Shown here piece by piece: positions 32,276-64,000 of a stretch of DNA of 64,000 nucleotides. The DNA comes from Trypanosoma brucei (Eukaryota), in NCBI GenBank assembly GCA_000002445.1, contig AE017150.2, positions 1,056,001-1,120,000 of the forward strand. Direction: 5' to 3'. The notes under the pieces were generated by a model. It made no database searches and was not told where the DNA came from. It saw only the letters and a program-made list of their open reading frames with translations. The position numbers were made by a program, and so were the translations under genes. Positions within the stretch are counted from its first letter, which is position 1, and the number at the start of each line of letters is the position of its first letter.

Positions 32276-32278
32276 GAG

Positions 32279-32309
<31 letters not shown>

Positions 32310-32312
32310 AAA
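32276..32312 (+). repeat. (GAAA)n microsatellite, about 8 units, immediately upstream of the GPI-PLC start codon.
   Basis: Read directly as agaaagaaagaaagaaagaaagaaagaaagaaa. Confidence 0.9.
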
Positions 32313-32352
32313 AGAGGGGAAGGGGACTTTGAGACGGTTAAGAATCTTTGTA

Positions 32353-34849: not shown

Positions 34850-34888
34850 TTTGTTTGTTTGTTTGTTTGTTTGTTTGTTTGTTTGTTA
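34850..34888 (+). repeat. (GTTT)n microsatellite, about 9 units.
   Basis: Read directly within the 3.5-kb intergenic region. Confidence 0.9.
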
Positions 34889-44374: not shown

Positions 44375-44409
<35 letters not shown>

Positions 44410-44462
44410 GTGTGTGTATTTATTCACCTACTTCAGTCCTAAAAGGGAGTGAGTAGGCGAAG

Positions 44463-45926: not shown

Positions 45927-46204
45927 CAATGTTGGAATTGCGAGTACGGAGACTTTCATGGTGAGAATGTTGGGTGGAGTGGCGTTGGTAAAAAGGCATG
46001 GGGAGAGGAAAGGAAAAACAAAACAAAACAAAAGCAAACAAAGAGAACCAGTAAAAAAACAACAACAACAACAAAAAAAAAAAGGAAGAAACGAAAGCAG
46101 CAAGAAGAACCTCACAAGGGAGAGGGGGGGGGGTGGAAATATAGATAGAAAAGAGGCATATGATATTGAAAACGAAAAAAAAAATAAATGAAAAGAAGTA
46201 AATA

Positions 46205-46217
46205 GGGGGGGGGGGGG
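46205..46217 (+). repeat. G13 homopolymer. A G10 run lies at 46124-46133 in the same intergenic region.
   Basis: Read directly. Confidence 0.9.
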
Positions 46218-46287
46218 AAATTTAGATAAGGGTGGGTCTCACACGCTGCTGTTGGTAGTTTCTGTGTGTTGCTTGTTCATAGATTTA

Positions 46288-46322
<35 letters not shown>

Positions 46323-46732
46323 GTGTGAACAAGGGGAAATGGAAGTGCTGTTAAACTTCTTTTTTTTCCCCTTTAACCGCTCCACACGTCATCGTGCACG
46401 CAAAAAACTTTTTGGCACAGGAAAAAATGACATCAGTAAGAGTACGCTGTTCGTCATTTTTCAGTTTATGTCGATTTTACTATTTTAATCACTCAATTTT
46501 TTATCTTTTGTTTATTTGGTGTAATGTGGCTGTTGTTTTATGTTTTGTTTACCGACTAAAGTTTATTTCAACTGTGCTGCTCTCGCTTCCACATTTTCAC
46601 ATTGAAAAGAAAAAAAAAAAAGAAACATCCCTCCCAAACTCGTTTCGTTCTTTTTTCCATTTCTGTTTTTTTTTTTTTACTTGGCTATTGTTTACCATTC
46701 TTATATTAGTAGCGTGCGTGCAGGTGTGTGTG

Positions 46733-49700
46733 ATGCACGCGAGAATAAATATACGTAACGCCGTGTTTGTACCACTTGGCATTTCCATATGCGCCGCTGC
46801 CGTTGTTATCGCAGCTCGAGCATTATTACGCGAAAGGGCGAGGCCTGCGGTTCTTTTGGATTGCGAGCGGAAGGCATATGAAATACTTGAGATGCTTACG
46901 AGGGCAACAATAAAAACAGATGGGCACGACAGTAAGCAGACGGAATGCAAAGATGACGCCTCCATCGCCATTTTTTTGAATTGCAACGGGGTGGAGTCCA
47001 TACACGTGAGGACTTTAGTGTTTAACCACAATATCATGCAACTTCCGTCCGTGTTTGCAGTTCACTGCGGCTTGATGAAGAATTCGCACCCGGACCATCT
47101 TCTTGTTTGCGACATTTGGAACTGTCTCATGGCGTTGATGAACTGCAGCATCCGTGACATTTTATTGGATGATGGCGTTGCATTGTGTATCCTCGACGAT
47201 GTAAAAGCTGAGGAAGTCTTGGCACTGTGCATGCTGCTGCGAGGTAAATACTCAATCGCGCGGTATCCGCCTGCTGCTCAAGCCGATGTTGTGGTACAGG
47301 AGTTTCCTGAAGAGCTGTATTTGGGTTTAATTACTGCCTATAACAGAAAACGCTCGCTTCAATCCGGAATAACTTCTTTTTGGAAGCTAATGTGCTCCTC
47401 GTGCTCCATTCCGCAACTTGTCACCTTGGCGGCTACCGTATTGTTCTCACCAGAGGTTATTCTGAAATGTATTCTGGGGATGCATGCTTTCGTCCACTGG
47501 CGACCTATCTACGCGGCGGAGATTGGAAAGAGTCTAAACGGCGATGTGTCACCCAAGCTGTCGCCATTCCGGTTTATCATAAAGCAACTTATGGGGCTTC
47601 CAGCGACTTTTGTGTCGATGGCGGTTGCGTCAACGTTTGCCTTTGAGTCGTTGTACTGCATCCGTGGATTTGTTATCCAATCCATCCTATCGGATATTAT
47701 TACTTCTATTCACATTGATGCCTATTTGGCGCTGGCTACGGCCGACTACGATCCTTCTGATGATTGGCTTCTCTCCCGTTGTGTATCGCAGGCTCTTTGG
47801 CAGGCCTCAGGTTCGGTGATGGATGAGCTGCAGAGTCGAGTGCCTGCACTACTTGAAGTGATGCACGGGTGTCGAGTCGTCTTCAGTTTTCCAGTGGTTT
47901 CTCTAGTCATGTGGTTAGGGACTCAATGGAGTAATTTCCTGTACTTTCTTAATGAAAGCCTTTACATGGAGTCGCAGTTTACAAAGAGCCAATTAGCTTC
48001 AGTCACTAATATCGCTACTTCCACTTATGCAGGAAATGGAGAGGAAAATCAGGTGTCTCCCACCTGCTCATTTCCCGTCCAAAATTCCTTGACCTCGTCG
48101 CCCCTAACCCTTCTACAGAAACAGAAGGATGACGGAATAAAGTGTATGTTATCATCTACGGACAACAAAATGTTGTTTCAACAGACTTTCTCCCACCCCT
48201 CCCGTCACGACAAGTCGTCAGTGCAGTACGGTTTGGTGCTCTTTTCAATGGTATTCGTGGAGTCCGGTAGACCACTTGGCTACATGTGGGACCTTCTCAC
48301 ACAACACGTGATATGGCCTTTAGTACCTTCCGTGTTCAGCGGATGCGTTGTGGACGCATTGAAGCGGAAATTACAAGCAGGCGGCCACACATGCGCTGTA
48401 AGTGTGCGACGGCTTGGATGGATAAAAGACGTCATTCAAAACTCACCGCGACCAGCGACTGCGAGTCCGTCCACTTGTGTTTGGCAGTGCCGTCAGGATT
48501 ATCTTCAGGGATTTGCAGCACTTCGTCTTTCCGGGTGGGAGTTGATGGCAGCCACGGCGGCTGCCGCCTTCGCAACAGCGTCGGAGCGGAATGATCGTTA
48601 TGAGCAGTGCGGGCGTGATGTTTTGCACGGGTTGTTTCAGATGGCTGACACGTTGCCACTTTTGCTTGTTTCAGCAGTGGCTCTACGTTTCTCACCTAAC
48701 TTTTTTACGCAATCGGTGTTGGATCAAACCGAGATAGTGAATCAGTTGCGTTCAATTCAACACTGGTGTCCATTGTATCACGCATTCCTCGGCTCTTTTT
48801 ACGACGAGTGCGGTATGAGTGAAGCGCAAGTCGATGAGGCTCACCTCCGGCGGCACCTCGCTTTTAGCGGAAGTTCACTGGGGTGTTATCAAGTTTTGGA
48901 GGGTTTGCAATCAGTTCAGCGGAAAATTGATCGACCCGTACGAGGCATTGTCCCTCCTTCACTGGATGGACCATGGAGTGTGGAGTTTCGTGAAGTTTCT
49001 TTTAGATACAGCGACAGACATCCTTATGTCCTCCGGCGAGTCTCATTTGTCGTAAACAAGGGAGAGTTCCTTGGCATTGCCGGCTACAGCGGGTCTGGGA
49101 AAACAACACTTCTCCGTCTGCTCAATCGAACATATGCTCCAACGGAAGGAGACATTTTTGTGAATGGAGTACATATAAGCCAATACCCTGCTCGCATGTT
49201 GAGGCGCCGAATAGCCAACGTGTGGCAAGAAGAGAACAACTTGAGATTCATTGAGGATCTTTCCATCGGGGGAAATATTGCGTTGGGTAATCTCTGGGAT
49301 TGCAGCGATGAAAACATTTGCGCGGCACTTTCCGCTTCACGTGCGCTCAGCTTCGTGCAGAAGCGTTCATCCGGAATTCATGCACCTTTAAATGTGCGTG
49401 AGTTTAGTGGCGGTGAAGTGGAACGTCTTTGCATCGCACGTGCTTTCGTAAAAGCCGGCTCAGCTGTTGGTCTCTGCATTTTCGATGAACCTACAAGTGC
49501 AATTGATACCATAACTGAAGGAGAAATCTTCGATACGCTGCGGCTCCGTGAGGGAAACAATTTACTACGGGATTCTACCATTATTATTGTGGCGCATCGT
49601 CTTGCAACATTAAAGCATGCGGATAAAATTGTCGTTCTTAATGAAGGAATGGTTGCTGAGGTGGGAAGTTGGGAGACACTTTCCAGAACAGGGCCTCACT

Positions 49701-49753
49701 CATGCTTTTCGAGGATGCGTCAGTCGCAGCAATTGCCCCACTTTGTGAAATAA
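46733..49753 (+). CDS. ABC half-transporter, with a long N-terminal membrane region and one C-terminal nucleotide-binding domain.
   Basis: The NBD motifs are Walker A GYSGSGKTT, Q-loop NVWQEEN, signature FSGGEVERL, Walker B CIFDEPTSAID and H-loop IIVAHRL. The start is chosen at Met 46733 (MHARINIRN). The ORF-track start at 46394 translates the upstream pyrimidine and poly-A tract. Confidence 0.7.
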   Translation: MHARINIRNAVFVPLGISICAAAVVIAARALLRERARPAVLLDCERKAYEILEMLTRATIKTDGHDSKQTECKDDASIAIFLNCNGVESIHVRTLVFNHNIMQLPSVFAVHCGLMKNSHPDHLLVCDIWNCLMALMNCSIRDILLDDGVALCILDDVKAEEVLALCMLLRGKYSIARYPPAAQADVVVQEFPEELYLGLITAYNRKRSLQSGITSFWKLMCSSCSIPQLVTLAATVLFSPEVILKCILGMHAFVHWRPIYAAEIGKSLNGDVSPKLSPFRFIIKQLMGLPATFVSMAVASTFAFESLYCIRGFVIQSILSDIITSIHIDAYLALATADYDPSDDWLLSRCVSQALWQASGSVMDELQSRVPALLEVMHGCRVVFSFPVVSLVMWLGTQWSNFLYFLNESLYMESQFTKSQLASVTNIATSTYAGNGEENQVSPTCSFPVQNSLTSSPLTLLQKQKDDGIKCMLSSTDNKMLFQQTFSHPSRHDKSSVQYGLVLFSMVFVESGRPLGYMWDLLTQHVIWPLVPSVFSGCVVDALKRKLQAGGHTCAVSVRRLGWIKDVIQNSPRPATASPSTCVWQCRQDYLQGFAALRLSGWELMAATAAAAFATASERNDRYEQCGRDVLHGLFQMADTLPLLLVSAVALRFSPNFFTQSVLDQTEIVNQLRSIQHWCPLYHAFLGSFYDECGMSEAQVDEAHLRRHLAFSGSSLGCYQVLEGLQSVQRKIDRPVRGIVPPSLDGPWSVEFREVSFRYSDRHPYVLRRVSFVVNKGEFLGIAGYSGSGKTTLLRLLNRTYAPTEGDIFVNGVHISQYPARMLRRRIANVWQEENNLRFIEDLSIGGNIALGNLWDCSDENICAALSASRALSFVQKRSSGIHAPLNVREFSGGEVERLCIARAFVKAGSAVGLCIFDEPTSAIDTITEGEIFDTLRLREGNNLLRDSTIIIVAHRLATLKHADKIVVLNEGMVAEVGSWETLSRTGPHSCFSRMRQSQQLPHFVK

Positions 49754-50239
49754 AAAAAAAATAAAAATAATGTCATAATGATACCTTCAGTGCATTTGCA
49801 GTACGCCGCGTCCATAAAGAAGAAATGGTGTTGATGAATTTATTATTAATTTTTTAAAAGGAAGGAAGGGTGGAAGAAAAGACAAGAAGAAGAACAAGAG
49901 CCGCTTTTGTTCTTTTTCTTTTTGTTTCGTCTGTTTGTTTCTCCATGGTACATAAAAACTGTGCAGTATTGTTTTCCACCCATTAAAAAAAAATGAGTGT
50001 TAACGCATGAAGTTCCATACAACTGTTTAATTTCATCCAGAAAGAATTCGCCCCAACGTGCCCTACTTCTCAAAATAAAACCCGTTAATTCTTTCGCTAT
50101 CATCCGTTTTGTGTTTTTTTTTCCTTTTCTCATTACTGAATCAGCACTCCTAAAAAAAAGTGCGCCATTCCCCAAAATAGCACGGTAAAGGGCGAATGTT
50201 TGTGTAATTTCGAAAAAAAAAATAAAGGAAGATGTTATA

Positions 50240-53200
50240 AATGCATGCAGCCCAATACTTGAGAAATGTGTATTTTCTACACCTTAACATCAATTTTTTT
50301 TTTGTAAAGGACAAACTCACTGAGTGTTTAGTGACTGCGCTTCTTCAAACTTTTCTCCCTCAAGGCGTATTATGCAGTTGCAGAGAGTCATCTGTTTTCT
50401 GCTCCTTCTCCGCTTGCTAATGATTTGTGTTTATGCGTGTTGCTTCCTTTTTTATATTGTAAGTAATAGAAGACAAAAAAGGGGATATTACATATTACAT
50501 ATTTTATTTCGTATGTTAGCATGGTTGCATAATTTATGCTGCTGTAGAGGCGTGTGTTATGGATTGTAGTATTTGGAGAAGTTGTTTGACTAAAAGTTAC
50601 AAAAGCTAACCCTGTGTGTGATGGATTGTTAATTTATATAAACTTGTTTAACTTTACATTAGAATATAAATTTATTTATTGTCATTTAAATAGTTCCCCC
50701 ATATGAGAAAACTAAATGAACACGTATATGCACGTACATGTATGTGTATATTTGCATATTTGTTGTTTATGTATATTATATTTGAGTAATGTTAGTAAGG
50801 TGAGAAAACGGCTGTGTAATAAATCATTTTTATTTGGTATGCTTTGAGTGCGCGCGCGTGGGTTCTTTATTTCTATTATTAGAAAAGGAAACTGCAATAA
50901 TTGTTTCATTATTAAAAGTTCTTCATGACTCTTGTTTTTAAGTTTAGCATTTTGCTATTACTCAAATCATGTGAATTAAGGGAGGACTCATATCAGTATC
51001 ATATGATGATATTTGAAACAATTTAGAGACGCCTGATATTACTCAATACTCTAACTCTTTTTTTTCCTTTCATATCCATTGCATTTATATTGTGATATGA
51101 TAAGTTGATTTGTGTTAGCATTCAAATGCAGCATTGTTATTATTAATATTAACTTCCTTAAGGGAAATTAATTCGAAAGGAATGTTATTGTAAAAGGATT
51201 CAAATTGCAAGTAGTTATTCAGATAATGTTAATAATTTATACACAATTTTATATTTATTGTAGTTGTAGTAGTGTGCGTATTTCAACAAAGGTACCACTA
51301 ATTTTGCAGTTACTAAAAAGTTATAATGACACAATTCTATTTCTTGATAATGTGAGTCCCTGAATTTGTTGTTCTCTTTATATTTTTCACTTTGCTTTTC
51401 TTTTCTTTCATTTCATATATGTTTTTCTTTTTGTTATATAGACAAACTTATTATATCACTATTTCAAGTAATTCAAAAAGATGGCAATGCTTGGTTTCGA
51501 GTCGACAGCTGAATTTTTCGTCTATCTCACCTTTATCTTTTTTGGGATGTCGGTGATGAATGTGACGAATGCCATTTACTCCAATTATGATTATTTCTCG
51601 GAATATTACAAGTTTGCGCAGCGTAATGCAGATGCGATATCCTCCAATCCATCATTCTGGAAGCACATGTTCACGTATTATAATGTTGTTGTGTTTACGA
51701 TGCAAGTGCTTTTGGAGGCTTTTATGCTCACACCATTGGGCCGACGCATTCCTATTAGTTGGCGTCTCATCTTTGGACTCACAATTCCTATGGTGGAGAT
51801 TATTGTGATTTTAGTGATCCCTGAAGTTGGAGGAAGCGAAGATGGTGCAATCGCAACTATGATGATAGTTGCTTTTGTTGGTGGTATTTCCAAAACACTT
51901 TGTGACTCCAGCAATGCTGCACTTGCGGGACCGTTTCCGACTAAATTCTATGGTGCCATCGTGTGGGGTCTTGCTGTCTCTGGCCTCATGACTTCATTTA
52001 TGTCTATTGTTATCAAAGCATCGATGGACAGCAGTTTTGAAAGCAAGAGAGTTCAGTCCCAAATATACTTTGGATTAGTCATGCTTCTTCAGGTGGTTGC
52101 ATGCGTGCTTCTTGTCCTTCTGAGGAAAAACCCATATGCCATTAAATATGCTGCAGAATTTAGGTATGCTGCGAGGAAGGATGGAGCAACAGGTGAAGAA
52201 GATGACACCGATTTTAAAGGAAGGGGCCCAGCAGATGAGAATAGATATCCCGATGAAAAGGATGACAAGAATGTGCTGAATGCTGATATTGATCCAGATA
52301 AGATGAAGGATACGGATCAGGTTGAAGGCACTACCAACGCTCAGCAGATGCTTGATGCGAGTGTTATGGTTGTGGTGAAACGCATTTGGCCCATGTTACT
52401 TTCATGCTTCTTTGTGTTCTTTGCGACACTTCTTGTATTCCCTGGTGTATTCTTTGCCGTTAAAGGCTCGATGGATCTTAATAACTTTTGGTACTTTCCC
52501 GTTGCCATTGCCATGTTCAACTTGGGTGATTTCTTGTCTCGTCTGGTGCTGCAGTTCAAGCAATTGCATGTGTCTCCGCGTATGGTTTTGATTGGTTCAT
52601 TTGCACGTGCACTTTTGATAATTCCTCTTTCTCTTTGTGTGTCCGGTGCAATTCCTGGTGTGGGGGTTCCTTTTACCGTTTCTCTCCTTTGGGGTCTCAC
52701 AAATGGTTACTTTGGTGGCCTTTCAATGATTTATGGACCACGTACGGGATCCCTCACCACAGCGGGTCAACGCTCTCTTGCTGCCATTTGCATTAATGTT
52801 GCCCTTCTTATGGGTCTTTTTGCTGGTGCTATGTTTGCCTTGGCTGTTAAGGAGGGACTTCCTAAATAAATTTCTCAAAACTTGTAAATACTTTAAGTAA
52901 TGACATATCATTAGTTTTTAATTTATTAATGAAAAAGAAGATAAATGATACTCGATGCTGGTATCAGCTAGGAGTGGTGTGAATGATGCAATAAAAAGAA
53001 GGGTAAGGATAGTAAAGAGATGAGCGAGAAATTGAAATATGAGGAATAAGAATAAATTCTAGTTAGAAAAGAATTATATGATATTTGAGAGTAATGAAGC
53101 ATATGCGTGCACACGTTATGTTGTTTTAAATGTGATAAATGGTATAAAAGAAGAAAGTACGTCTTTCCCTTTTCGTTTCTCTAAACTTGTGACTGAGTAT

Positions 53201-53600
53201 AAATAAACATATCTGCAATCATTTTAAAAGAGAGAGAAGTGGACGGAGGACCGCAGGTGCGCGTTCATATAATTGTCTTTTTCTTTTTTCCCGTTTTCAT
53301 TATGTTGTGATTGACTCCCTACAAATATCATAATTTCCTCCAATGTTTTGTGTAGCTTTCGTAATTTTTAACAGGAGAAATGATGGTGCAGATCCATTCT
53401 TTGGTGTATACTCAATTTTTGTCTTCTGTTGGATCAATTTCTTTTTGTTGAAACAAAAAAGCAAAAAGGAGGAAATAAAATATACGACTGTAGAAACATA
53501 AACGAACTATCAAAAAAAAAACACATATACATATTTATAATATGTGTTCTTTCTGCACAAAAAAAAAAAGAAAAAAATTGTATTAGTTACAATAATAAAA
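50240..53600 (+). repeat. Segmental duplication unit, copy A, covering the transporter 5' flank, CDS and 3' flank.
   Basis: 50240-53600 aligns with 60703-64000 at a constant offset of 10,463 bp. For example 50324 matches 60787, 51481 matches 61941, and 53381-53590 matches 63803-64000. Confidence 0.9.
51481..52869 (+). CDS. Equilibrative nucleoside transporter (ENT family, TbNT2-cluster type), copy 1.
   Basis: 462-aa polytopic protein with 11 hydrophobic segments and a large acidic central loop. It is 85-90% identical to the ORF at 61941-63335. Its position matches the tandem TbNT array next to GPI-PLC/HSP104. Confidence 0.85.
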   Translation: MAMLGFESTAEFFVYLTFIFFGMSVMNVTNAIYSNYDYFSEYYKFAQRNADAISSNPSFWKHMFTYYNVVVFTMQVLLEAFMLTPLGRRIPISWRLIFGLTIPMVEIIVILVIPEVGGSEDGAIATMMIVAFVGGISKTLCDSSNAALAGPFPTKFYGAIVWGLAVSGLMTSFMSIVIKASMDSSFESKRVQSQIYFGLVMLLQVVACVLLVLLRKNPYAIKYAAEFRYAARKDGATGEEDDTDFKGRGPADENRYPDEKDDKNVLNADIDPDKMKDTDQVEGTTNAQQMLDASVMVVVKRIWPMLLSCFFVFFATLLVFPGVFFAVKGSMDLNNFWYFPVAIAMFNLGDFLSRLVLQFKQLHVSPRMVLIGSFARALLIIPLSLCVSGAIPGVGVPFTVSLLWGLTNGYFGGLSMIYGPRTGSLTTAGQRSLAAICINVALLMGLFAGAMFALAVKEGLPK

Positions 53601-56600
53601 AATAGTGAAGCCAGCAGGAGGTGATAATTACAATTTGAACTCATCCCCTCTTGCCTATTTCACTATTCCCTTTGTTTCTTGAGAAAATAACTAAAACAGT
53701 AAAACAAGAGAGAGGATAGTAATAAATTGAATGAAATCAACAATACATTATTTTAAGAGGAAATTTGATTTTACTTTTTCTTTACTTTTCACTGTTTCTG
53801 TTTTTTGATTACTTTTACTTCCTTTCATTTCTTACTTTTTATTCCCATGACTGTGCTATGGTGTTACGGATATGTGTGTGTAAGTGAGGAATGTTGTGTG
53901 GATTTGCTTCTATTATTGTTTACTTGCCTTTGGTTGTATATCACACGCCTGCTTATGTTTTCCCATATGTGTACGCCTGCAGCAAACAGTGTGGGAATTT
54001 ACTCCGTGACTTTTTCTCATAAATGTCGGGAGGCAAATAATTAAATTAATTTTTTGTTTAATGTATCTGTATATGTTTGTCTGTTTATGTGTATGTGTTT
54101 GTGTGTACGTATTTGACATGTTCAGCAATATGTTTAGATTATCCAATAATAACTTCTCTTCCTTTCTATCTCTTATACAGTTATGTTGTTTACTTGTCAC
54201 TGTTTTACTTTCAGGAAAGTGTATAAATTAAGCTGAAGCAACGTTATGTTTATTTGTGTATTAGGCGCATGAATTCATTTTCTAGCAGTTAATGTACGTA
54301 TGCATACACGCATGTGTTTAACTTTATAATGTCTTATACTAAAAATGTATTCAAATATTGCCATGTGAATACCGTGTGAGGCTTATTGTATTTTTGTGTC
54401 GTGAAATAGTCAAGTAGTTGCTGTGTAACTTTTGTGTTTTTTCTTAAATAGATGACGTGTGTTTCCTTAGTTTAAAATATTTAATAAATGATTTGACAGC
54501 TGCTTGCATGTGAGAGTTTCATTCCTCTTCTTTGCTTAAAAATGTGCAGAGACTGGAATCCTTCATATAAATGATGTGAAATGCATAACTTATAAATTGC
54601 ATTTCCACTTTCACATATTGTAATATTATTGAGTATCAAAAGGGAAATGATGAATTACGTAATAGGAAGTTATTCACAACATGTTAATAGAGCAATTTAA
54701 CTTCGCAGCTATCACAGAACAGGCTTTTTATTGTAATGCTTATTTGTGGAATAGCTCATGCTTTATGAATTCTTGAGGATGGAGCGTTGTAATATTTTTA
54801 AAAGTAAACATAAGTAAACAAATAAATAAACAGTTTATCATTTTTGTATTTGCCTTCATAATCACTATAAGCTAAGCTATTAGTCTATTAACAATAATTA
54901 ATATGGCTACTAGTAAGGCAAAAGACGAGAAATAAGAAATTAATTTATAGGAATGATTTGATAGTTTGACGAATGTGTAATTATCATGTCTCTGATACTA
55001 GTGACGGATTATGATAGAGAGAATATGATTTGTGAGGTAGTTTTGATTCTCTGAAGTGATACAGCGGCGCATGGGAACTCGTCGTAAGAAAAAAAGAAAT
55101 AAATAATGTGCGGTATGTAATTTTTAAACCTCACATTGATGAGGTTGTGAGGCATAAAATAACTCTTGCCATTTTCCCAACGTGGCCAACAGTCGAAGAA
55201 CTGGTGCAACACTGCAGTAATGATACAGTGATGTTAAATTGAAAGCGAAAAATAAATATGAATGGCGTAAAAAGGGGGAAGGAAGTAGTGATGGTGGCGT
55301 AATCGATTTGGATTGTTTTTCGTGACAAATTCTCTACATTCAATGATTCTAGAGGAAACAAGTACGTACCATAGCAGTGGTTACTGTGTTTCCATAAGGA
55401 GTAAGTTATATTTACTGGAAAATGTGGTATTAAGAAATGTTATATGTGAGTAGTAATATACCTCAACACAGAGATGTACGCTCATGTAATCACTACACAA
55501 AAACCTTCCGAATGTTTTGAACGCACTGAGCGGATTGATGCGTCTCTCCAACCTTGAGTTGAAATGCACAACCCTTGAGTGTTGAGTTGGGATACATATT
55601 TTTAGATGTCACTAGAGCTTGATGTGTGGAATGAAACTCTAGAGCTCATGCATATGGCTAATGCTTATCATCGTCGTAACTTCCATGTTGGTACGATGAT
55701 GTGCAGTTTGCTGTTAGTGATAGCCTTCAGTGGATTGTATGGTAGGTGGTGTTTCTCTGTTTGTTTTCTGTCACAGATGGCAATGGAAGCGTCGACTATC
55801 TTTTGTATTACTCAGAAGGGAAAATTCTCTTTTTAAGTAATGGTAATGTTGAATCGTTGATAAAATCAACGGAATTATCCATAAGCTAGTTTTAATTGGA
55901 GGAAAGGAGAATAGGAGAACTGCCCACTTTGATGTGTTGCCAACAAACGAAAACAAGTGGTATGTATATTTTAGAACCCAGTATTTTTCTTTCTTATCCG
56001 ATGTACTTCCCTAATGTTTGGATCTGAGAAATACCTAATGATGATTAATACGGTTAGAGTTAGGGCATTCTTTTGTGATGCTGAATATCGCATCTATTGA
56101 TAACAGCAATCGATACGCCATACTCAAACATAAATGAATTCTCACACATTAACGCTGCTTCTGGTATCGCCAACCGTTATGTTCAATAGCTCGTTACGTG
56201 GGAGCATGAGTGGATGTAATGATGGATGCCGCTTCATCAAAGGCAGCTGCGTGATACTTATCTCAGAATATGTCAATGGTGTCGTATTATAGCCAAGTTT
56301 AAGTCTAATAATTAATCATAGTGATGTGTGTGGAAAAAGTGAGATTGTACCATTGCAGTGAGTGAACCGCTTTGCTTGGGACGTATTGCATTGTGCTGTG
56401 TGATTAAGCGCCGAGTTTGTTCACATCATACGTATGATATTTAGTTACTGTCAACCCACCGGATTGGTGTGGGAGGAGTGTAAGGCATCGTGCGAGCATG
56501 GGACATATGTTTCATCGCAGTGTCACGGAGGTTTTAAGGTATGGTGGAATATGGGAGGTGGATTAGCTATAGATCTCTTTGTGCCTCCATCCCTTCGTGC

Positions 56601-58586
56601 TATGCTTTTTCTTTTCCCCTGAAACTGATACAGTCTGGGGAGGCAGTGTGCTGAAGCTTCGCTAAGGTTTTGAAAGCAGGACTCACGACCCATCCCCCAC
56701 TGTGTAATGTATGATGACCAGATTTGTTCTGAGGGAGCATCAAACCAATCGTGTACGATGGAAGTGTAGAATAGGAAGTAAAGGAAAGTGTATTATTATG
56801 TGCAGATGCGTATGAGGCACTGCTCACAACACCTAAAGAAAGCAAAGTCACTCCTGACGGTTTTGATCATTTTATCAGTGTATCACAATCTAATCATTTC
56901 TGCTGTAGAAGGTTCGTTGCATAGTTGTGTGTATTCTGCTTTCAGAGTTGACATTCTGTCACTTACCACTGTGGAGAGTGATCACGATAATATCGTCGGC
57001 TTTCCGGTATGGAAGGAAGTATCACTTTACTCTTCTGCTCGTATAAGCGTGCTTTGTTCATCCGTGGAGCGGTGTTGTTATTGAAAAGGGGATGCTGAGT
57101 AGAGTGGTGACTCAACACTTTTTCTTGTACTGAAGACATACTAAGAGGTTCTGTCAGCAGGACAGACTTGCGGTGGCCAGGTGGTTTCGCGACCTCAGGG
57201 ACAACTTCCATATTGCACAAGGGGAACTTCTTCGTTTTGAGGTGACAGGGCGCATGCTAGTGTTGGGATATCTGTACATTGGAATGGCAAGGTCTTCCAG
57301 GGAAGGAAGGGAGGTGTATAAACCAGTGAAGGGCTGCACAGGTACTGTGTCAGGTATGAAAGTGATAGAGGTCTCTAAGGAAGTGTCAGATGTGATTATA
57401 CTCGGCAAGAGGTTGCTGCTCAAGGTTTTGATTATATACTTTCCGAAACAATCAAATGTTGCGAAAATTACGTTGAAAGAAAGTTTAGGGGGAGCAATGG
57501 GATAAGGGAAACCCTCACTGGATTGTTTTGTCGGGTATACAGCATGATAAGTGGAAGGTTTGGTGGAGAAGCACGCAGGTACACCACACCCAATTGGTGG
57601 GAGAGTAGTAATGGCCGGGAGCATTTACCGTGAGTGACAACTCCAACAATGGATGCTAAGTAGTTAATGTTGAAATGTTTTAAAACGTTAGAGAAAGGAA
57701 TGACTAAATGGTTGTAGGTACGTAAATTGTGGGAAGCACTGAGGGAAAATGATGTAATGATGCGACGGACCAAGGGACTCGAATACCCAATATATTACAA
57801 GAAACGCTACTATTGAGTTGGGTGCAGAAACAAGTGAGAGACAAGCTGTTTGGGTAGTTGAAGTATCGACCACTGGGAAGGGTGAAGCGTGGGCAGGAAG
57901 GATCATCAAATCTTATCCTCCTTTCAGTTAATATGACTGAAGAAGCGAGAAAAGAAAAAGAATGGTTGTGAAAAGAGAAATTAGCGAAAAAGAATTAGTA
58001 GAAGCAATTGTGGCGTCAAAAAAGACGTTAAGGGTAGCGTTAGTACAAATAGAAAAGCAGCCAACTCTAAAAAATTGGTTTCCGACGTAAAGGAAGCGGG
58101 GACAGGTGAATAAAACTATTTAATTTGTACCAGTTTACATGTATGAAAATGACCTCATATGTGTGTGATTTGCTCCTGTTAACTCGGTGAACATCGGAAC
58201 TGACACGTTGCTCTGTGCTATTGTAGCAATGCACTCCAGTGTGATATCACTGGAACTATGAAACCTTATATTTCTTATGGCGTTGTATCAGTGCTTCCAC
58301 TATGGTATCATTATGTTAACGTGAGCAGTATATTGTCACGTGGTGGACAACATGTCAACTAGTTTGTTTAAACTGTTGCTCTCTTGACAGCTTGTAATTC
58401 GTATCATTCTGTTGTGTTCTTTTCCTTTCTTGTTTATTCTTCCAAAATACTGTTATCGGAAGGACCCCCTTTATCCTTATTTTTGCATCTGCACTGGCTG
58501 TTTAAGCGGACCCTTTCCAATTGTTAGGCACAAAACGGTACATATATATATATTTCAAGAAAGCAACAGTGTGTAATTTAGAAACC

Positions 58587-59546
58587 ATGACACGCGCCTC
58601 GCTTCCTGTTATTGATGTTTCGCCCCTATTTGGTGGCGAATCCGCAGAAAAGGAAAGGGTCTCCAAGCAGATTGATAATGCATGCAGAACATGGGGCTTC
58701 TTCTACATTGTGGGGCATCCGATCCAGCAGGAGCAGATTGAGAGGGTGCTAGATGTAGCGAAGAATTATTTTTCACTCCCCATGGAAGAGAAGCTCAAAT
58801 TGGACATTCGTAAAAGTAAGCTGTATCGTGGTTATATTGCTTTTGGGGCCGAGGACCCCGATGATGCTAAGGTCTACGGCTACGAGGGGTTCAATATGGG
58901 GCACCATCTTCCGAAGCACCACCCAGAGGTTATGGCAGGAGTGCCGCTCCGAGGACCGAACATCCACCCCACTCAGGTAAAGGGCTGGGCGGAGGAAATG
59001 GAAAATCAATATGACGATATGTGGGCCCTTTCACTTGTTATCCTGCGCGCTATGGCACTGGGACTCGGCCTGCGGGAAGATTTCTTCGACTCCAAGTTTA
59101 TGGATCCGATGTGTGAATTGAATATAAAGCATTACCCTTCCCCAACCACTACAGGCAAAAAATCTCATTTGCTTATTGAGCACGCTGACTTTTGCGCTAT
59201 TACATTACTCTATCAAGACGGTGTGGGTGGCTTGCAAATTCGAGGACTTTCCGGAGAGCTGATGGATGTGCCACCTGTTGAAGGAAGTTTTGTTGTCAAC
59301 ATTGGAGACATGATGGAGATGTGGACCAATGGCCAATACCGTTCTACCATGCACCGTGTTGTTCCGAGAAGTGGCACACGGTACTCCATGCCTTTTTTCT
59401 GTGTCCCAAACCCGAATGTCATTATTAAGTGCCTCGACAACTGTCATTCGGAGGAGAATCCACCAAGGTACCCTCCAGTGCGGGCTGTTGACTGGATTTT
59501 GAAGCGATTCGCGGAAGTGTTTTCGCTTGCAAAACCTAAAATGTAG
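58587..59546 (+). CDS. 2-oxoglutarate/Fe(II)-dependent dioxygenase of the iron/ascorbate oxidoreductase, isopenicillin-N-synthase-like family.
   Basis: The HxD...H iron-binding facial triad is present (IEHADFCAITL and STMHRVVP), together with the 2OG-binding RxS motif (TRYSMPF). The N-terminal non-haem dioxygenase region VIDVSPL...WGFFYIVGHPI is typical. The start is at the ATG at 58587. Confidence 0.75.
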   Translation: MTRASLPVIDVSPLFGGESAEKERVSKQIDNACRTWGFFYIVGHPIQQEQIERVLDVAKNYFSLPMEEKLKLDIRKSKLYRGYIAFGAEDPDDAKVYGYEGFNMGHHLPKHHPEVMAGVPLRGPNIHPTQVKGWAEEMENQYDDMWALSLVILRAMALGLGLREDFFDSKFMDPMCELNIKHYPSPTTTGKKSHLLIEHADFCAITLLYQDGVGGLQIRGLSGELMDVPPVEGSFVVNIGDMMEMWTNGQYRSTMHRVVPRSGTRYSMPFFCVPNPNVIIKCLDNCHSEENPPRYPPVRAVDWILKRFAEVFSLAKPKM

Positions 59547-60702
59547 GAGTTCCTCTTAGTTTGCATTTCTTTTAGTATTTGCTTTATCAAGAATGGTATC
59601 AGGCCCTACGATTAGTAGTTGGTTTCAGATATGAATGATTTACATATGCGTAGTATCTGTCGTAATGCAAAAAGTTCTGTGATTTAAAATCTGTGTGAAG
59701 ACAGTACGGTAACGTATCTAGTCAGAATGAATATATTTCGCTCACTCTTTATTTTCAATGTAGGGAATTGTTAAAGGGGTAATAATATTTCTTTCACCTT
59801 TCCTCTTCTTTTTTCATTATCATCTTTGTAATGAATGCTGTAAGGCTATCTTTTATCCTACTTTGATATCTTCATCTATTTCCTTATTACATTGGATAAT
59901 GGATTGATATCTTCACTACGATGACAACTGAAGTATTCTGACAAACAATGGGTGCATGCTATTGTATGTTAGTTTGTGATGCAGTAGAGTCCTCCTTGGA
60001 AATATTTGTCTTTTTTTCCCTCTCTGAGGGGTTTCTACCTTTTTCTTTTCTCATTGCATTTTAAGGGTTAATTACGCATTAGAAATGCTACCCTTCACTT
60101 TGAAGTCATTCCTTCTTACACAGGTATTATTTTGATGCGATCTCATGCGAGGAGAATGGAGGTAGATGGAGAATGAAAAAAACTCACATTCTCCACCCAC
60201 CCAATGGAGAGCATACGTTTTACCATGGAAGTCGCGCTTGAAGTATCTCCCCAAGTAGAGCAAACTAATGAGGAATTAGCACCTAAGGGTTGCGTTGTTA
60301 AATATGTTGAAAGAGTGATGTGTATGTGGGGTTCGTACGTGAAGGATAAGGGATTTTGAGGGTGCTTACTCTTATTGTGTTTTTAATTTTTTTTCTTGAG
60401 AAAGGAGGGTGGCCAATTATATAATGTCACCTGACGAATGGGATTGCTGTGTATCACGCTGTTTGTAATTGTTACATATATTGGTAAGAAATAATTTTTT
60501 TTGTTATGTGAATTTCAATGCGTTTGATGTTTTTTGCCACCGCACTTATGTTGAGTCTGTTCTGTACCTCTTACTGTATGTTGAACATACCATTCTCTAT
60601 TATTTTCTCATTTTTTTGCCTCAGCTTTCCAGGGGAAACACATGTGGTACATATGAGATGGAATACACTAAACGACACCTAACACTGTGGGAGAATGTGA
60701 TA

Positions 60703-63700
60703 AATGCATGCAACTCAATAGTTGAGAAATGTGTATTTTCTACACCTTAACATCAATTTTTTTTTTGAAAAAGACAAACTCACTGAGTGTTTAGTGACTG
60801 CGCTTCTTCAAAAATTTTTCCCTCAAGGCGTATTATGCAATCGCGGAAAGTTATTTGTTTTCTGCTCCTTCTCCGCCTACTAATGATTTGTGTTTACACA
60901 TGTAGCTTCCTTTTTTATATTGTAAGTAATAGAAGACAAAAAAGGGGATATTATATATTACATATTTTATTTTGTATGTTAGCATGGTTGCATAATTTAT
61001 GCTGCTGTAGAGGCGTGTGTTATGGATTGTAGTATTTGGAGAAGTTGTTCGACTAAAAGCTATAAAAGCTTGCCCTGTGTGTGATGGATTTTTAATTTAT
61101 ATAAACTTGTTTAGCTTTATATTAGAATATAAATTTATTTATTGTCATTTAAATAGTTCCCCCATATGAGAAAACTAAATGAACACGTATATGTAAGTAT
61201 ATGTATATTTATATTCGCATATTTGTTGTTTATGTATATTATATCTGAGTAATGTTGGTAAGGTAAGAAAACGGCTGTGTAATAAATCATTTTTATTTGG
61301 TATGCTTTGAGTGCGCGCGCGTGGGTTCATTAGTTCTATTATCAGAAAAGGAAACTGCAATAATTGTTTCATTATTAAAAGTTCTTCATGACTCGTGTTT
61401 TTAAGTTTAGCATTTTGCTATTACTCAAATCATGTGAATTAAGGGAGGACTCATATCAGTATCATATGATGATATTTGAAACAATTTAGAGACGCCTGAT
61501 ATTACTCAATACTCTAACTCTTTTTTTTCCTTTCATATCCATTGCATTTATATTGTGATATGATAAGTTGATTTGTGTTAGCATTCAAATGCAGCATTGT
61601 TATTATTAATATTAACTTCCTTAAAGGAAATTAATTTGAAAGGAATGTTATTTTAAAAGGATTCAAATTGCAAGTAGTTATTCAGATAATGTTAATTGAT
61701 ACATAATTTTATATTTATTGTAGTTGTAGTAGTGTGCGTATTTCAACAAAGGTACCACTAATTTTGTAATTACTAAAAAGTTATAATGATACAATTCTAT
61801 TTCTTGATAATGTGAGTCCCTGAATTTGTTTTTCCCTTCATATTTTTCACTTTGCTTTTCTTTTCTTTCATTTCATATATGTTTTTCTTTTTGTTATATA
61901 GACAAACTTATTATATTATTATTTCAAGTAATTCAAAAAGATGGCAATGCTTGGTTTCGAGTCGACAGCTGAATTTTTTGTCTATCTCACCTTCATCTTT
62001 TTTGGGATGTCGGTGATGAATGTGACGAATGCCATTTACTCCAATTATTATTTTTTTTGGGAATACTACAAGTTTGCGCAGGGTAATGAACATGCTGTTT
62101 CTGCAAATCCATCATTCTGGAAGCACATGTTCACGTATTATAATGTTGTCGTGTTTACCATGCAAGTGCTTTTGGAGGCCTTTATGCTCACACCATTGGG
62201 CCGACGCATTCCTATTAGTTGGCGTCTCTTTTTTGGACTCTCACTTCCCATGGTTGAAATCATTGTAATTTTGGTTATTCCTGCTGTTGGAGGAACAAGT
62301 GAGGGCGGTGCGATGGCAACTATGATGATAGTTGCTTTTGTTTGTGGTATTTCCATGACACTCTGTGACTCCAGCAATGCTGCACTTGCGGGACCGTTTC
62401 CAACTAAATTCTATGGTGCCACCGTGTGGGGTCTTGCTGTCTCTGGCCTCATGACTTCATTTTTGGCTATTGTTATCCAAGCATCAATGAAGGATAACTT
62501 TGAAAGCAGACGAACTCAGTCCCAAATATACTTTGGATTAGTCATGTTTCTTCAGGTGGTTGCATGCGTCCTTCTTGTCCTTCTGAGGAAAAACCCATAT
62601 GCCATTAAATATGCTGCAGAATTTAGGTATGCTGCGAGGAAGGATGGAAAGACAGATGATGGCGAAGATGAAAACGATGCAAAGGGAACAGGACCAGCAG
62701 ACGAAGATGGGTATCCTGATGAAAAAGAGAATAAGAATGTATTGAATGCTGATATTGATCCAGATAAGATGAAGGATACGGATCAGGTTGAAGGCACTAC
62801 CAACGCTCAGCAAATGCTTGATGCGAGTGTTATGGTTGTGGTGAAACGCATTTGGCCCATGTTACTATCTTGCTTCTTTGTATTCTTTGCGACACTTCTT
62901 GTATTCCCTGATGTATTTGTTGCTGTTAAAGAAGGGTTCCCAACTCATGGGGGATGGTACTTTACAATTGTTGTTGCCATGTTCAACTTGGGTGATTTCT
63001 TGTCTCGTCTTGTGCTGCAGTTCAAGCGGTTGCATGTGTCTCCGCGTATGGTCATGATTGGTTCATTTGCACGTGCACTGCTGATAATTCCTCTTTCGCT
63101 TTGTGCTGCCGGAACCATTCCTGGTGTGTGGCTTCCCTACACCGTTTCTCTCCTTTGGGGTCTCACAAATGGTTACTTTGGTGGCCTTTCAATGATTTAT
63201 GGACCACGTACGGGATCCCTCACCACAGCGGGTCAACGCTCTCTTGCTGCCATTTGCATTAATGTGGCTCTTTTACTCGGTCTTTTTGCTGGTGCTATGT
63301 TTGCATTGGCTGTTAAAGAGGGACTTCCTGAATAAGTTTTGAAAATTTATGATACCTTCAAATAATGTGAAAAATTTTTTGTAACTAGTGAAATAAAAAA
63401 AAGCTCCGTGCTGGTATCAGCCAGGAGTGGTTTTAATAATTTAAGAAAAAAAAGTAAAAAGGAGGAAATGAAGAATGGGAAATAACAATAAATTGTACGA
63501 ATAAGGATAATAGGGGACCCGGAAGCGAGCAAGCATGGATTTTATCTGTTTTATTCATGTTTATGGGGAATTTCTTTAAACATTATCGTATGTGTTTATC
63601 AATTTTTTTGCGGTGTATATACGTGTTGTTGAAGATACATTTTACATGGTCTAAAGAATATTGTGAGGAACTGAAGTTGTTGTCATGTTGCACTTATGTT

Positions 63701-64000
63701 GTTACCTTCTTATTTGTTATTATGCTGTTGTACAATCGATTCTAATAACATAATTTCTTTGAGTATCTTTTGAAGGTTATGTAATGTTCATATGGGAAAA
63801 TGAAGGTGCAGAACCATTCTTTGGTGTATACTCAATTTTTGTCTTCTGTTGGATCAATTTCTTTTTGTTGAAACAAAAAAGCAAAAAGGAGGAAATAAAA
63901 TATACGACTGTAGAAACATAAACGAACTATCAAAAAAAAAACACATATACATATTTATAATATGTGTTCTTTCTGCACACACAAAAAAAAAAGAAAAAAA
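60703..64000 (+). repeat. Segmental duplication unit, copy B. It runs to the window edge and probably continues beyond it.
   Basis: See copy A. The small flanking ORFs at 50324-50569 and 60787-61032 are near-identical. Confidence 0.9.
61941..63335 (+). CDS. Equilibrative nucleoside transporter (ENT family), copy 2, a paralogue of copy 1.
   Basis: 464 aa. It is co-linear with copy 1 and lies inside a duplicated block of about 3.3 kb. Confidence 0.85.
   Translation: MAMLGFESTAEFFVYLTFIFFGMSVMNVTNAIYSNYYFFWEYYKFAQGNEHAVSANPSFWKHMFTYYNVVVFTMQVLLEAFMLTPLGRRIPISWRLFFGLSLPMVEIIVILVIPAVGGTSEGGAMATMMIVAFVCGISMTLCDSSNAALAGPFPTKFYGATVWGLAVSGLMTSFLAIVIQASMKDNFESRRTQSQIYFGLVMFLQVVACVLLVLLRKNPYAIKYAAEFRYAARKDGKTDDGEDENDAKGTGPADEDGYPDEKENKNVLNADIDPDKMKDTDQVEGTTNAQQMLDASVMVVVKRIWPMLLSCFFVFFATLLVFPDVFVAVKEGFPTHGGWYFTIVVAMFNLGDFLSRLVLQFKRLHVSPRMVMIGSFARALLIIPLSLCAAGTIPGVWLPYTVSLLWGLTNGYFGGLSMIYGPRTGSLTTAGQRSLAAICINVALLLGLFAGAMFALAVKEGLPE

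What the first reader, a model, noticed from the sequence alone, without database searches (positions are those of the whole stretch)
50240..64000. Tandem segmental duplication with a 10,463-bp period, carrying nucleoside-transporter paralogues with patchy mosaic divergence
The two transporter CDSs are identical over long stretches, and so are about 1.2 kb of 5' flank and about 0.7 kb of 3' flank. They differ sharply in two patches.

The first patch is the acidic central loop. Copy 1 has RKDGATGEEDDTDFKGRGPADENRYPDEKDDKN. Copy 2 has RKDGKTDDGEDENDAKGTGPADEDGYPDEKENKN.

The second patch is a segment near 52440-52500 in copy 1 and 62900-62960 in copy 2. Copy 1 has FPGVFFAVKGSMDLNNFWYFPVAIAM. Copy 2 has FPDVFVAVKEGFPTHGGWYFTIVVAM.

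Block-wise divergence of this kind inside otherwise homogenised copies is a signature of gene conversion with selected patches. The patches may encode differences in substrate or drug (adenosine/inosine/melarsoprol-type) specificity.

Copy A begins abruptly at 50240, right after the ABC transporter gene, so the first unit is partial. The array presumably continues beyond the window end.
Basis: seen in the sequence. Interest (0 to 1): 0.5.

Follow-up and report, generated by a model that had tools for sequence, protein, structure and literature searches.

The report
Known trypanosome nucleoside-transporter gene array
This is the start of the well-known Trypanosoma brucei chromosome 2 array of purine nucleoside transporter genes (TbNT2 to TbNT7) alternating with oxidoreductase genes; its patchwork divergence is real, comes from gene conversion, and has already been published.

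Summary
The duplication is real. Window 50232-53001 matches 60695-63454 at a 10,463-bp offset with 90.5% identity, and homology resumes at 53374/63795.

The window is T. b. brucei TREU927 chromosome 2. Copy 1 is exactly XP_951746.1 and copy 2 exactly XP_951748.1. The gene between them is iron/ascorbate oxidoreductase XP_951747.1. This is the published NT2-NT7/oxidoreductase array: six transporter genes and five oxidoreductase genes. Recombination tests on this array were published in 2010.

The gene-conversion reading is supported. Discrete tracts switch between copy-1 and copy-2 type in T. b. gambiense and T. b. equiperdum. Synonymous divergence is also concentrated in the patches.

- There are at least six divergent patches, not two.
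- The roughly 500 nt after each stop codon are only 53% identical between copies, but 97-99% conserved between strains.
- By the array's own phase, the last unit is the partial one, not the first.
- 'Selected patches' is weakly supported. Only the TM7-TM8 patch has dN/dS near 1.
- The acidic loop is disordered, cytosolic and swapped between strains.
- The melarsoprol idea fails, because these are P1-type carriers, not P2.

Verdict: already known, low interest.

The parts
50232..60694 (+). Repeat unit 1 of the array (10,463 bp). It holds the 5' flank, the transporter gene, a position-specific 3' block, a spacer of about 5 kb, the oxidoreductase gene and its 3' region.
   Evidence: The blastn offset is 10,463. 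The sliding identity profile fixes the left edge. The unit is collinear at 96.4% with T. b. equiperdum chromosome 2.
60695..64000 (+). Repeat unit 2, cut off by the end of the window.
   Evidence: The spacer of unit 1 also aligns to the second spacer of the T. b. gambiense array at 94%, so whole units are repeated.
50232..51480 (+). Homogenised 5' flank of copy 1. Its partner in copy 2 is 60695-61940. A polypyrimidine-rich stretch lies upstream of the ATG.
   Evidence: The two flanks are 95.2% identical. Paralogous identity within T. b. equiperdum (98.5%) exceeds orthologous identity between strains (96.0%), which indicates concerted evolution. The sequence is shown.
51481..52869 (+). Copy 1 coding sequence, 462 aa. 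It is XP_951746.1, 'adenosine transporter 2', the first transporter gene of the array (Tb927.2.6150, TbNT2/927).
   Evidence: Exact match. Pfam PF01733, E = 3.6e-31. AF2 model with pLDDT 85; best PDB match is hENT1 6OB6 with TM-score 0.88.
61941..63335 (+). Copy 2 coding sequence, 464 aa. It is XP_951748.1, the second transporter gene of the array. By gene order it should be Tb927.2.6200 and TbNT3; that naming is from memory and was not checked here.
   Evidence: Exact match. Pfam PF01733. It is 87% identical to copy 1 at the protein level.
52183..52269 (+). Patch 1 of the finding, the acidic central loop (copy 1 aa 235-263; copy 2 counterpart about 62646-62735). It is a disordered part of the cytosolic TM6-TM7 loop.
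   Evidence: pLDDT is below 50 for aa 236-260. dS is 1.44 and dN/dS 0.15. The copy-2-type cassette is also present in XP_951752 and XP_951754, and in the first gene of T. b. gambiense.
52444..52509 (+). Patch 2 of the finding (copy 1 aa 322-343; copy 2 counterpart about 62910-62975). It covers the outer end of TM7, the extracellular TM7-TM8 loop and the outer end of TM8.
   Evidence: dS is 0.61, dN 0.63 and dN/dS 1.0. The HMMER alignment to hENT1 puts F320-P321 on F307-P308 and N347/D350/R354 on N338/D341/R345. G322D falls in a column where 32 of 33 other ENTs have G.
52870..53373 (+). Position-specific block just 3' of copy 1, presumably 3' UTR. The copy 2 counterpart is 63336-63794. It is not homogenised between units.
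   Evidence: It is 53% identical between copies but 97-99% identical between TREU927, T. b. equiperdum and T. b. gambiense at the same array position.
53374..58586 (+). Unit spacer with no recognisable gene. Its first 200 nt are seen again at 63795-64000.
   Evidence: 97% identity over 53374-53577. No + strand ORF longer than 110 aa and no Pfam hit at E <= 1. It aligns at about 91-96% to the spacers of T. b. gambiense and T. b. equiperdum units.
58587..59546 (+). Iron/ascorbate (2OG-Fe(II)) oxidoreductase gene, 319 aa. It is XP_951747.1 (Tb927.2.6180), interleaved with the transporter genes.
   Evidence: Exact match. Pfam DIOX_N plus 2OG-FeII_Oxy. The alternation with the transporter genes is described in PMC2771046.

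Best explanation
The region is the left end of the published Trypanosoma brucei chromosome 2 array. In that array, six P1-type purine nucleoside transporter genes of the ENT/SLC29 family (TbNT2 to TbNT7) alternate with five iron/ascorbate oxidoreductase genes, in head-to-tail units of about 10.5 kb. The window holds unit 1 (Tb927.2.6150 plus Tb927.2.6180) and the first third of unit 2 (the second transporter gene).

The patchy divergence results from repeated short-tract gene conversion between array members, with or without unequal crossing-over. Some blocks have been homogenised recently: the 5' flank, TM1, TM2, TM6, TM7 and TM10. Others retain or import older sequence 'cassettes', mostly in extracellular loops, the outer ends of helices and the disordered cytosolic loop. 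Purifying selection acts on the protein overall.

Shown here: the identity of the genes, the unit structure, the mosaic tracts and the pattern of synonymous divergence. Inferred: the molecular mechanism (conversion as opposed to double crossover) and any functional consequence of individual patches.
For: Identity:
- Copy 1, copy 2 and the oxidoreductase are exact matches to TREU927 proteins XP_951746.1, XP_951748.1 and XP_951747.1, on a contig of 1,193,948 bp.
- Four further paralogues carry alternating accessions XP_951750, 752, 754 and 756.
- PMC2854126 Table 2 lists the array as Tb927.2.6150, with 6 copies in T. b. brucei and 3 in T. b. gambiense. It reports PHI p < 0.001, 10 LRT breakpoints and at least 14 GARD breakpoints.

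Structure: the unit offset is 10,463. The same transporter-oxidoreductase-transporter order occurs in T. b. equiperdum and T. b. gambiense.

Mosaic:
- The T. b. equiperdum first gene matches copy 1 at 0-7 mismatches per 60-nt window (mostly 0-3), except columns 301-390. There it has 14-16 mismatches to copy 1 and 0 to copy 2.
- The T. b. gambiense first gene matches copy 1 except columns 691-810, where it has 13-18 mismatches to copy 1 and 0-1 to copy 2.
- The cassettes are shared combinatorially among the six paralogues.

Divergence: whole-gene dS is 0.27 and dN 0.076. Synonymous differences are 46 per 99 sites inside the amino-acid-defined patches and 26 per 219 outside (Fisher p = 7e-11). 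TM10-IL5 has no differences at all.
Against: With only two copies in the window, conversion tracts cannot be polarised without the other strains. The T. b. gambiense and T. b. equiperdum arrays may be collapsed assemblies, so copy numbers of 3 and 2 are uncertain (PMC2854126 itself warns of this). A test restricted to silent changes in codons with identical amino acids is not significant on its own (P = 0.09), because it excludes the patches.
Confidence: 0.93

Rival explanations
1. The divergent patches are kept different by selection because they set the substrate or drug specificity of each paralogue, while the rest of the gene is homogenised.
For: - The TM7-loop-TM8 patch has dN 0.63 against dS 0.61 (dN/dS about 1.0), while most of the gene has dN/dS <= 0.5.
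- That patch reaches the outer ends of TM7 and TM8, next to residues that align with hENT1 F307/P308 and lie about one helical turn from N338.
- Copy 1's version is conserved in three subspecies, with 0-3 mismatches per 60 nt.
- Copy 2 deviates at two conserved columns: G322D (32/33 G) and K138M (27/33 K).
- Published kinetics differ among NT2 and NT5-7, with hypoxanthine uptake by NT5 (table in PMC9960827).
Against: - Five of the six patches have dN/dS of 0.09-0.49 together with high dS, so they look like older sequence rather than adaptive change.
- The acidic loop is disordered and cytosolic. It is exchanged between strains in the first gene, including the functionally characterised clone AAF04490.1.
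- A dN/dS of 1.0 over 22 codons is equally compatible with relaxed constraint.
- P1 carriers do not take up melaminophenyl arsenicals.
Confidence: 0.2
2. Surface diversification. The cassettes are shuffled because the variable residues face the host, so the array provides antigenically distinct versions of an exposed bloodstream-form transporter.
For: - Of 61 substitutions between the copies, 42 lie in extracellular loops or outer helix halves and 8 on the cytosolic side (Fisher p = 5e-9).
- Among the six TREU927 paralogues, 63% of extracellular-loop columns vary against 9% of cytosolic-loop columns.
- Family-wide, the outer and inner helix halves are equally conserved (0.66 against 0.67).
- Five of the six genes are 8-21-fold higher in bloodstream forms.
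Against: Extracellular loops are also the least conserved ordered part across non-array trypanosomatid ENTs (0.56 against 0.71). Among the six paralogues the difference between outer and inner helix halves is small (30% against 25%). dN/dS does not exceed 1 anywhere. There is no evidence here of antibody exposure under the VSG coat.
Confidence: 0.08
3. No recombination. This would be an old duplication in which the conserved blocks are simply under very strong constraint and the patches drift.
For: The conserved blocks are mostly transmembrane helices, and the variable blocks are mostly loops.
Against: - Constraint on the protein cannot explain near-zero synonymous divergence in the conserved blocks (0 of 26 synonymous sites in TM10-IL5; dS 0.04-0.19 elsewhere) next to dS of 0.5-1.4 in the patches.
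- It cannot explain 95-100% identity of 1.25 kb of non-coding 5' flank.
- It cannot explain discrete tracts that switch parentage between strains.
- Published PHI, LRT and GARD tests reject it.
Confidence: 0.03
4. Assembly artefact. The mosaic copies would be chimeras created when near-identical repeats were assembled.
For: Tandem arrays are error-prone in assembly, and copy numbers differ between assemblies: 6, 3 and 2.
Against: The same cassette types recur in three independent assemblies. The independently cloned gene AAF04490.1 is identical to the T. b. gambiense first gene. The position-specific 3' blocks are 97-99% conserved across strains.
Confidence: 0.03

Closest known systems
T. brucei TbNT2-TbNT7 P1-type nucleoside transporter array on chromosome 2, interleaved with iron/ascorbate oxidoreductase genes (Tb927.2.6150-6320). 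Sources: Sanchez et al. 2002 J Biol Chem 277:21499 (cited in PMC2771046), Jensen et al. 2009 (PMC2771046) and Jackson et al. 2010 (PMC2854126).
   Same: It is this locus. The protein sequences match exactly, the transporter and oxidoreductase genes alternate in the same way, and the mosaic recombination signal is the same.
   Different: Nothing essential.
Human ENT1 (SLC29A1), PDB 6OB6/6OB7.
   Same: Same 11-helix ENT fold (TM-score 0.88 normalised to the target, rmsd 2.9 Å). The TM7 F-P motif and the TM8 N/D/R motif are conserved.
   Different: Sequence identity is only 17-18%. The trypanosome carriers are described as high-affinity P1-type purine nucleoside transporters.
TbAT1 (P2 aminopurine transporter, chromosome 5), the melarsoprol and pentamidine carrier.
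   Same: Same ENT family.
   Different: Only 57% identical (P0010). It is a single-copy gene elsewhere in the genome. It carries adenine, adenosine and the drugs, whereas P1 carriers do not transport those drugs.
Other variable tandem gene arrays of T. brucei that evolve by partial gene conversion, such as ISG65, hexose transporters, GRESAG4 and amino acid transporters (Jackson 2007, PMC1855330; Jackson 2010, PMC2854126).
   Same: They show the same behaviour: sequence mosaics, concerted evolution that includes the untranslated regions, and copy-number differences between subspecies.
   Different: Here the unit carries two unrelated genes. A 3' block of about 500 nt escapes homogenisation.

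Membership tests
Equilibrative nucleoside transporter family (ENT/SLC29, Pfam PF01733) | A significant match to the family profile, above the curated cut-off | tested here: met
   Both copies score 109 bits against a cut-off of 29.8, with E about 4e-31.
Equilibrative nucleoside transporter family (ENT/SLC29, Pfam PF01733) | An 11-transmembrane-helix fold with a large cytosolic TM6-TM7 loop | tested here: met
   The AF2 model (pLDDT 85, pTM 0.86) has 11 long helices and a 216-294 loop. The best solved match is hENT1, with TM-score 0.86-0.88.
TbNT2-7 / oxidoreductase array of T. brucei chromosome 2 | Sequence identity with the annotated array genes | tested here: met
   Exact matches to XP_951746.1, XP_951748.1 and XP_951747.1 of TREU927.
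TbNT2-7 / oxidoreductase array of T. brucei chromosome 2 | Transporter genes alternating head to tail with iron/ascorbate oxidoreductase genes | tested here: met
   Transporter gene at 51481, oxidoreductase at 58587, transporter at 61941, all on the + strand. The same order occurs in L001, L002 and L003. It is described in PMC2771046.
TbNT2-7 / oxidoreductase array of T. brucei chromosome 2 | Six transporter units in TREU927 | tested here: inconclusive
   The window ends inside unit 2, and the TREU927 downstream DNA was not retrievable. Six paralogous proteins with alternating accessions and the published copy numbers of 6 and 5 support the count.
TbNT2-7 / oxidoreductase array of T. brucei chromosome 2 | P1-type transport: high-affinity adenosine, inosine and guanosine uptake | not testable with these tools
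   Only literature is available. The activity of the second gene is not documented in any paper I could read.
Tandem array evolving by gene conversion | Segments of one gene that have different closest relatives among the other copies or strains | tested here: met
   Discrete tracts switch from 0 to 13-18 mismatches per 60 nt and back. The protein cassettes are shared combinatorially. Published PHI, LRT and GARD tests agree.
Tandem array evolving by gene conversion | Synonymous and non-coding divergence that is heterogeneous along the unit, with paralogues more alike than orthologues in some parts | tested here: met
   dS ranges from 0 to 1.44 by region. Fisher p = 7e-11 for patches against the rest. 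The 5' flanks within T. b. equiperdum are 98.5% identical, against 96.0% between strains.
P2 / TbAT1-type drug (melarsoprol) transporter | Orthology to TbAT1 | tested here: not met
   TbAT1-type proteins are 56-57% identical to copy 1, whereas array members are 81-97% identical. The literature assigns NT2-7 to P1, which does not carry these drugs.

The most novel reading that the evidence does not exclude
Two features described here may not have been reported for this array.

(a) A block of about 500 nt immediately 3' of each transporter stop codon is excluded from homogenisation. It is 53% identical between units but 97-99% conserved between subspecies. It could be the element that gives each paralogue its own stage-specific expression. 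For example, the first gene is reported as expressed in procyclic forms and is absent from the list of bloodstream-enriched genes, while the second is 19.5-fold enriched in bloodstream forms.

(b) Amino-acid differences are concentrated on the extracellular face. This could reflect host-driven diversification through cassette shuffling rather than mere relaxed constraint.
Probability: 0.15. Interest if true: 0.4.

Novelty: already known. Interest (0 to 1): 0.12.

Why it matters
The P1 carriers are the route by which purines, and several experimental nucleoside drugs, enter African trypanosomes. Their multiplicity is considered the reason why resistance through transporter loss is unlikely. The array, its copy-number variation and its recombinant mosaics are already in the literature, so this finding adds no new biology.

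The useful residue is practical. It gives a corrected map of which blocks are homogenised and which are specific to an array position. It also gives two testable leads: the 3' block as a regulatory element, and the G322D/TM7-TM8 cassette as a possible determinant of activity.

Tried and rejected
- Retrieving TREU927 DNA downstream of the window, to count units directly, failed. The exact-protein look-ups for XP_951748.1 and XP_951752.1 found nothing on record. I used T. b. equiperdum and T. b. gambiense loci instead.
- The Sanchez 2002 paper is not held. Its contents are cited only through other papers or marked as memory.
- Jackson 2007 (PMC1855330) does not mention this array by name. The 2010 paper does.
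- A search for papers linking Tb927.2.6200 to 'NT3' found nothing. The NT3 label for copy 2 therefore rests on gene order and memory.
- I looked for a hidden gene or pseudogene in the 53.6-58.5 kb spacer. There is no Pfam hit at E <= 1 for eight ORFs and there are no notable tandem repeats. I rejected a coding interpretation for lack of evidence.
- A silent-site-only dispersion test was not significant (P = 0.09). It excludes the codons in the patches, so I replaced it with Nei-Gojobori counts per region.
- A 100%-identity ungapped megablast to list exact tracts returned nothing usable.
Full report

Yes, with corrections. A self-comparison gives one long match, 50232-53001 against 60695-63454. 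The offset is 10,463 and identity is 90.5% over 2,780 columns. A second match, 53324-53577 against 63744-64000, has a core of 97% over 53374-53577.

A sliding identity profile and the raw sequence place the left edge of homology at about 50226-50232. That is 479 nt after the stop of the ABC-transporter ORF, which ends at 49753.

Both ORFs are nucleoside transporters, at 51481-52869 (462 aa) and 61941-63335 (464 aa). Each matches Pfam PF01733 with E about 4e-31.

The 5' flank (1,249 nt) is 95.2% identical and contains stretches of 100%. The coding sequence is 89.2% identical. Differences are strongly clustered. The variance/mean per 60-nt block is 5.2, against 0.86 in permutations, P about 2e-4.

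- The 3' flank is not identical for 0.7 kb. The first 500 nt or so after the stop codon are the most divergent part of the unit, at 53% identity with indels. Identity then returns to 97-100% up to the end of the window.
- There are at least six divergent patches, not two.

**2. What is it?**

The two transporter proteins and the intervening 2OG-Fe(II) oxygenase (58587-59546) match three T. b. brucei TREU927 proteins exactly. These are XP_951746.1, XP_951748.1 and XP_951747.1, on a contig of 1,193,948 bp. Four more TREU927 paralogues carry accessions XP_951750, 752, 754 and 756, and a second oxidoreductase is XP_951749. That numbering fits strict alternation.

The literature describes exactly this arrangement. 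[quoted passage not shown] Jackson et al. 2010 list the arrays as 'Adenosine transporter, Tb927.2.6150' and 'Iron-ascorbate oxidoreductase, Tb927.2.6180'. They give 6 transporter and 5 oxidoreductase copies in T. b. brucei, and 3 and 2 in T. b. gambiense (PMC2854126).

I could not fetch TREU927 DNA downstream of the window. The T. b. equiperdum chromosome 2 is collinear with window 44001-62890 at 96.4%. The T. b. gambiense locus shows transporter-oxidoreductase-transporter-oxidoreductase-transporter. The window's spacer aligns to both of its spacers, so whole units are repeated, not just the genes.

In the T. b. equiperdum assembly the array has only two transporter genes. Unit homology after the last one runs on through the spacer and stops at the equivalent of window position 57650 or so, before an oxidoreductase gene. 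By the array's own phase, unit 1 starts complete at 50232 and the last unit is the truncated one.

**3. How did the mosaic arise?**

I aligned the two window genes with the available T. b. equiperdum and T. b. gambiense genes at the nucleotide level.
- The T. b. equiperdum first gene matches copy 1 closely (0-7 mismatches per 60-nt window, mostly 0-3), except in columns 301-390. There it has 14-16 mismatches to copy 1 and none to copy 2.
- The T. b. gambiense first gene is nearly identical to copy 1 except in columns 691-810, which encode the acidic loop. There it has 13-18 mismatches to copy 1 and 0-1 to copy 2.
- The T. b. gambiense second gene follows copy 2 over columns 61-510. It then switches to copy-1 type (columns 511-570) and to other paralogue types in the loop and in the TM7-TM8 patch.

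At the protein level the same cassettes are combined in different ways among the six TREU927 paralogues. For example, the copy-2 loop is identical in XP_951752 and XP_951754.

These discrete parentage switches are direct evidence for short-tract gene conversion between array members. They agree with the published tests for this array: PHI p < 0.001, 10 LRT breakpoints and at least 14 GARD breakpoints.

Concerted evolution extends into the 5' flank. Paralogous flanks within T. b. equiperdum are 98.5% identical, against 96.0% for the orthologous comparison with TREU927.

By contrast, the 500 nt or so after each stop codon are specific to the array position. They are 53% identical between copies but 97-99% identical between the three subspecies at the same position.

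**4. Are the patches 'selected'?**

Nei-Gojobori estimates for the whole gene are dS 0.27 and dN 0.076, which indicates purifying selection. Estimates by region are as follows.

| Region (copy 1 aa) | dS | dN/dS |
|---|---|---|
| Conserved blocks | 0-0.26 | dN 0-0.05 |
| EL1, 35-62 | 0.59 | 0.21 |
| TM3-EL2, 92-129 | 0.86 | 0.09 |
| EL3 region, 171-193 | 0.48 | 0.49 |
| Disordered loop, 235-263 | 1.44 | 0.15 |
| TM7-EL4-TM8, 322-343 | 0.61 | 1.02 |
| EL5 region, 385-398 | 0.62 | 0.37 |

Synonymous differences number 46 per 99 sites inside the patches and 26 per 219 outside (Fisher p = 7e-11). The patches were defined by amino-acid change and by structure, so this enrichment is largely independent evidence.

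The patches are therefore mainly older or imported sequence, not bursts of adaptive substitution. Over 22 codons that cannot separate positive selection from relaxed constraint.

**5. Where are the patches in the protein?**

An AlphaFold model of copy 1 (pLDDT 85, pTM 0.86) has 11 long helices. The 216-294 loop is disordered between 236 and 260. The best solved match is human ENT1, with TM-score 0.86-0.88. I took the orientation from established ENT topology: N-terminus cytosolic, TM1-TM2 loop outside, TM6-TM7 loop cytosolic.

It also varies between isolates. The T. b. gambiense first gene, identical to the independently cloned TbNT2 (AAF04490.1), carries the copy-2-type loop.

The second patch spans the outer end of TM7, the extracellular TM7-TM8 loop and the first turn of TM8. 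In the HMMER alignment to hENT1, F320-P321 align with F307-P308, and N347/D350/R354 align with N338/D341/R345. The patch therefore abuts residues that line the hENT1 ligand site; that role of those hENT1 residues is from my own knowledge and was not tested here.

Copy 1's version of this patch is conserved in three subspecies. Copy 2 carries G322D in a column where 32 of 33 other trypanosomatid ENTs have glycine. It also carries K138M, where 27 of 33 have lysine. A functional effect of this cassette cannot be excluded. From memory, the second and third genes of the array gave no detectable transport in oocytes in Sanchez et al. 2002. I could not read that paper.

Overall, 42 of the 61 substitutions between the copies lie on the extracellular half, 8 on the cytosolic half and 11 in the disordered loop (Fisher p = 5e-9). 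Across non-array ENTs the outer and inner helix halves are equally conserved (0.66 against 0.67). Extracellular loops are somewhat less conserved than cytosolic loops (0.56 against 0.71). The bias is thus partly ordinary constraint and perhaps partly something more.

**6. Drug specificity**

The suggestion of 'melarsoprol-type' specificity is not supported. NT2-7 are P1 carriers for adenosine, inosine and guanosine. The melaminophenyl arsenical and diamidine carrier is P2/TbAT1, and P1 carriers do not transport those drugs. TbAT1-type proteins are only 56-57% identical to copy 1.

**7. Comparison with what is known, and verdict**

This is not a relative of a known system. It is the known system, in the reference strain. 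The array structure, the copy-number differences between subspecies and the recombinant mosaics have all been published.

The session adds the following details:
- a corrected patch map;
- the non-homogenised, position-specific 3' block. It may relate to reported expression differences: the first gene is active in procyclic forms and is absent from the bloodstream-enriched list, which includes the other five;
- the phase of the unit;
- the extracellular bias of the substitutions;
- the unusual G322D in copy 2.

Novelty: already known. Interest: low.

Noticed in passing
window 3596-13342 (+): This is a very long gene made of more than 50 tandem 114-nt (38-aa) repeats with consensus MSKSHVVTSRAASPRCAKCLDQSMSRISTLPADIREAG. 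It reads as two ORFs, 3596-7324 and 7364-13342, split by a TGA near 7322. The two repeat blocks, 3911-7416 and 8195-11712, are 87% identical.
   Followed up: partly
window 52870-53373 and 63336-63794: The 500 nt or so just after each transporter stop codon are only 53% identical between the two units. They are 97-99% conserved between TREU927, T. b. equiperdum and T. b. gambiense at the same array position. This block escapes homogenisation and is a candidate regulatory 3' UTR element.
   Followed up: partly
window 53600-58500: Each unit carries a spacer of about 5 kb with no + strand ORF above 110 aa and no Pfam hit. It is still 91-96% conserved between strains. T. b. gambiense unit 1 lacks the equivalent of 54291-55449.
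   Followed up: partly
L003 11761-16575 (T. b. equiperdum CM010673.1): In this assembly the array has only two transporter genes and one oxidoreductase. After the last transporter gene, unit homology continues through the spacer and ends at the equivalent of window position 57650 or so. The right-hand unit is therefore the truncated one. Copy numbers across assemblies are 6, 3 and 2.
   Followed up: partly
window 62352-62354 and 62910-62912 (copy 2 codons M140 and D324, aligned to copy 1 K138 and G322): Copy 2 deviates from otherwise conserved ENT columns. G322D falls where 32 of 33 other ENTs have glycine, next to the TM7 F-P motif. K138M falls where 27 of 33 have lysine. Both may reduce or alter transport.
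   Followed up: no
window 51481-52869 against 61941-63335: Amino-acid differences between the copies are strongly biased to the extracellular half of the protein: 42 outside, 8 inside and 11 in the disordered loop. Family-wide, the outer and inner helix halves are equally conserved.
   Followed up: partly
window 34001-36000: There is a pronounced AT-rich trough (GC 0.28, against 0.38-0.53 over the preceding 34 kb) between the ORFs 32161-33429 and 36934-39501.
   Followed up: no
window 46394-49753: The mechanically listed ABC-transporter ORF starts at a GTG and has a low-complexity, phenylalanine-rich N-terminus. The real start is probably further downstream. Only the C-terminal ABC_tran domain (aa 880-1035) is recognised.
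   Followed up: no
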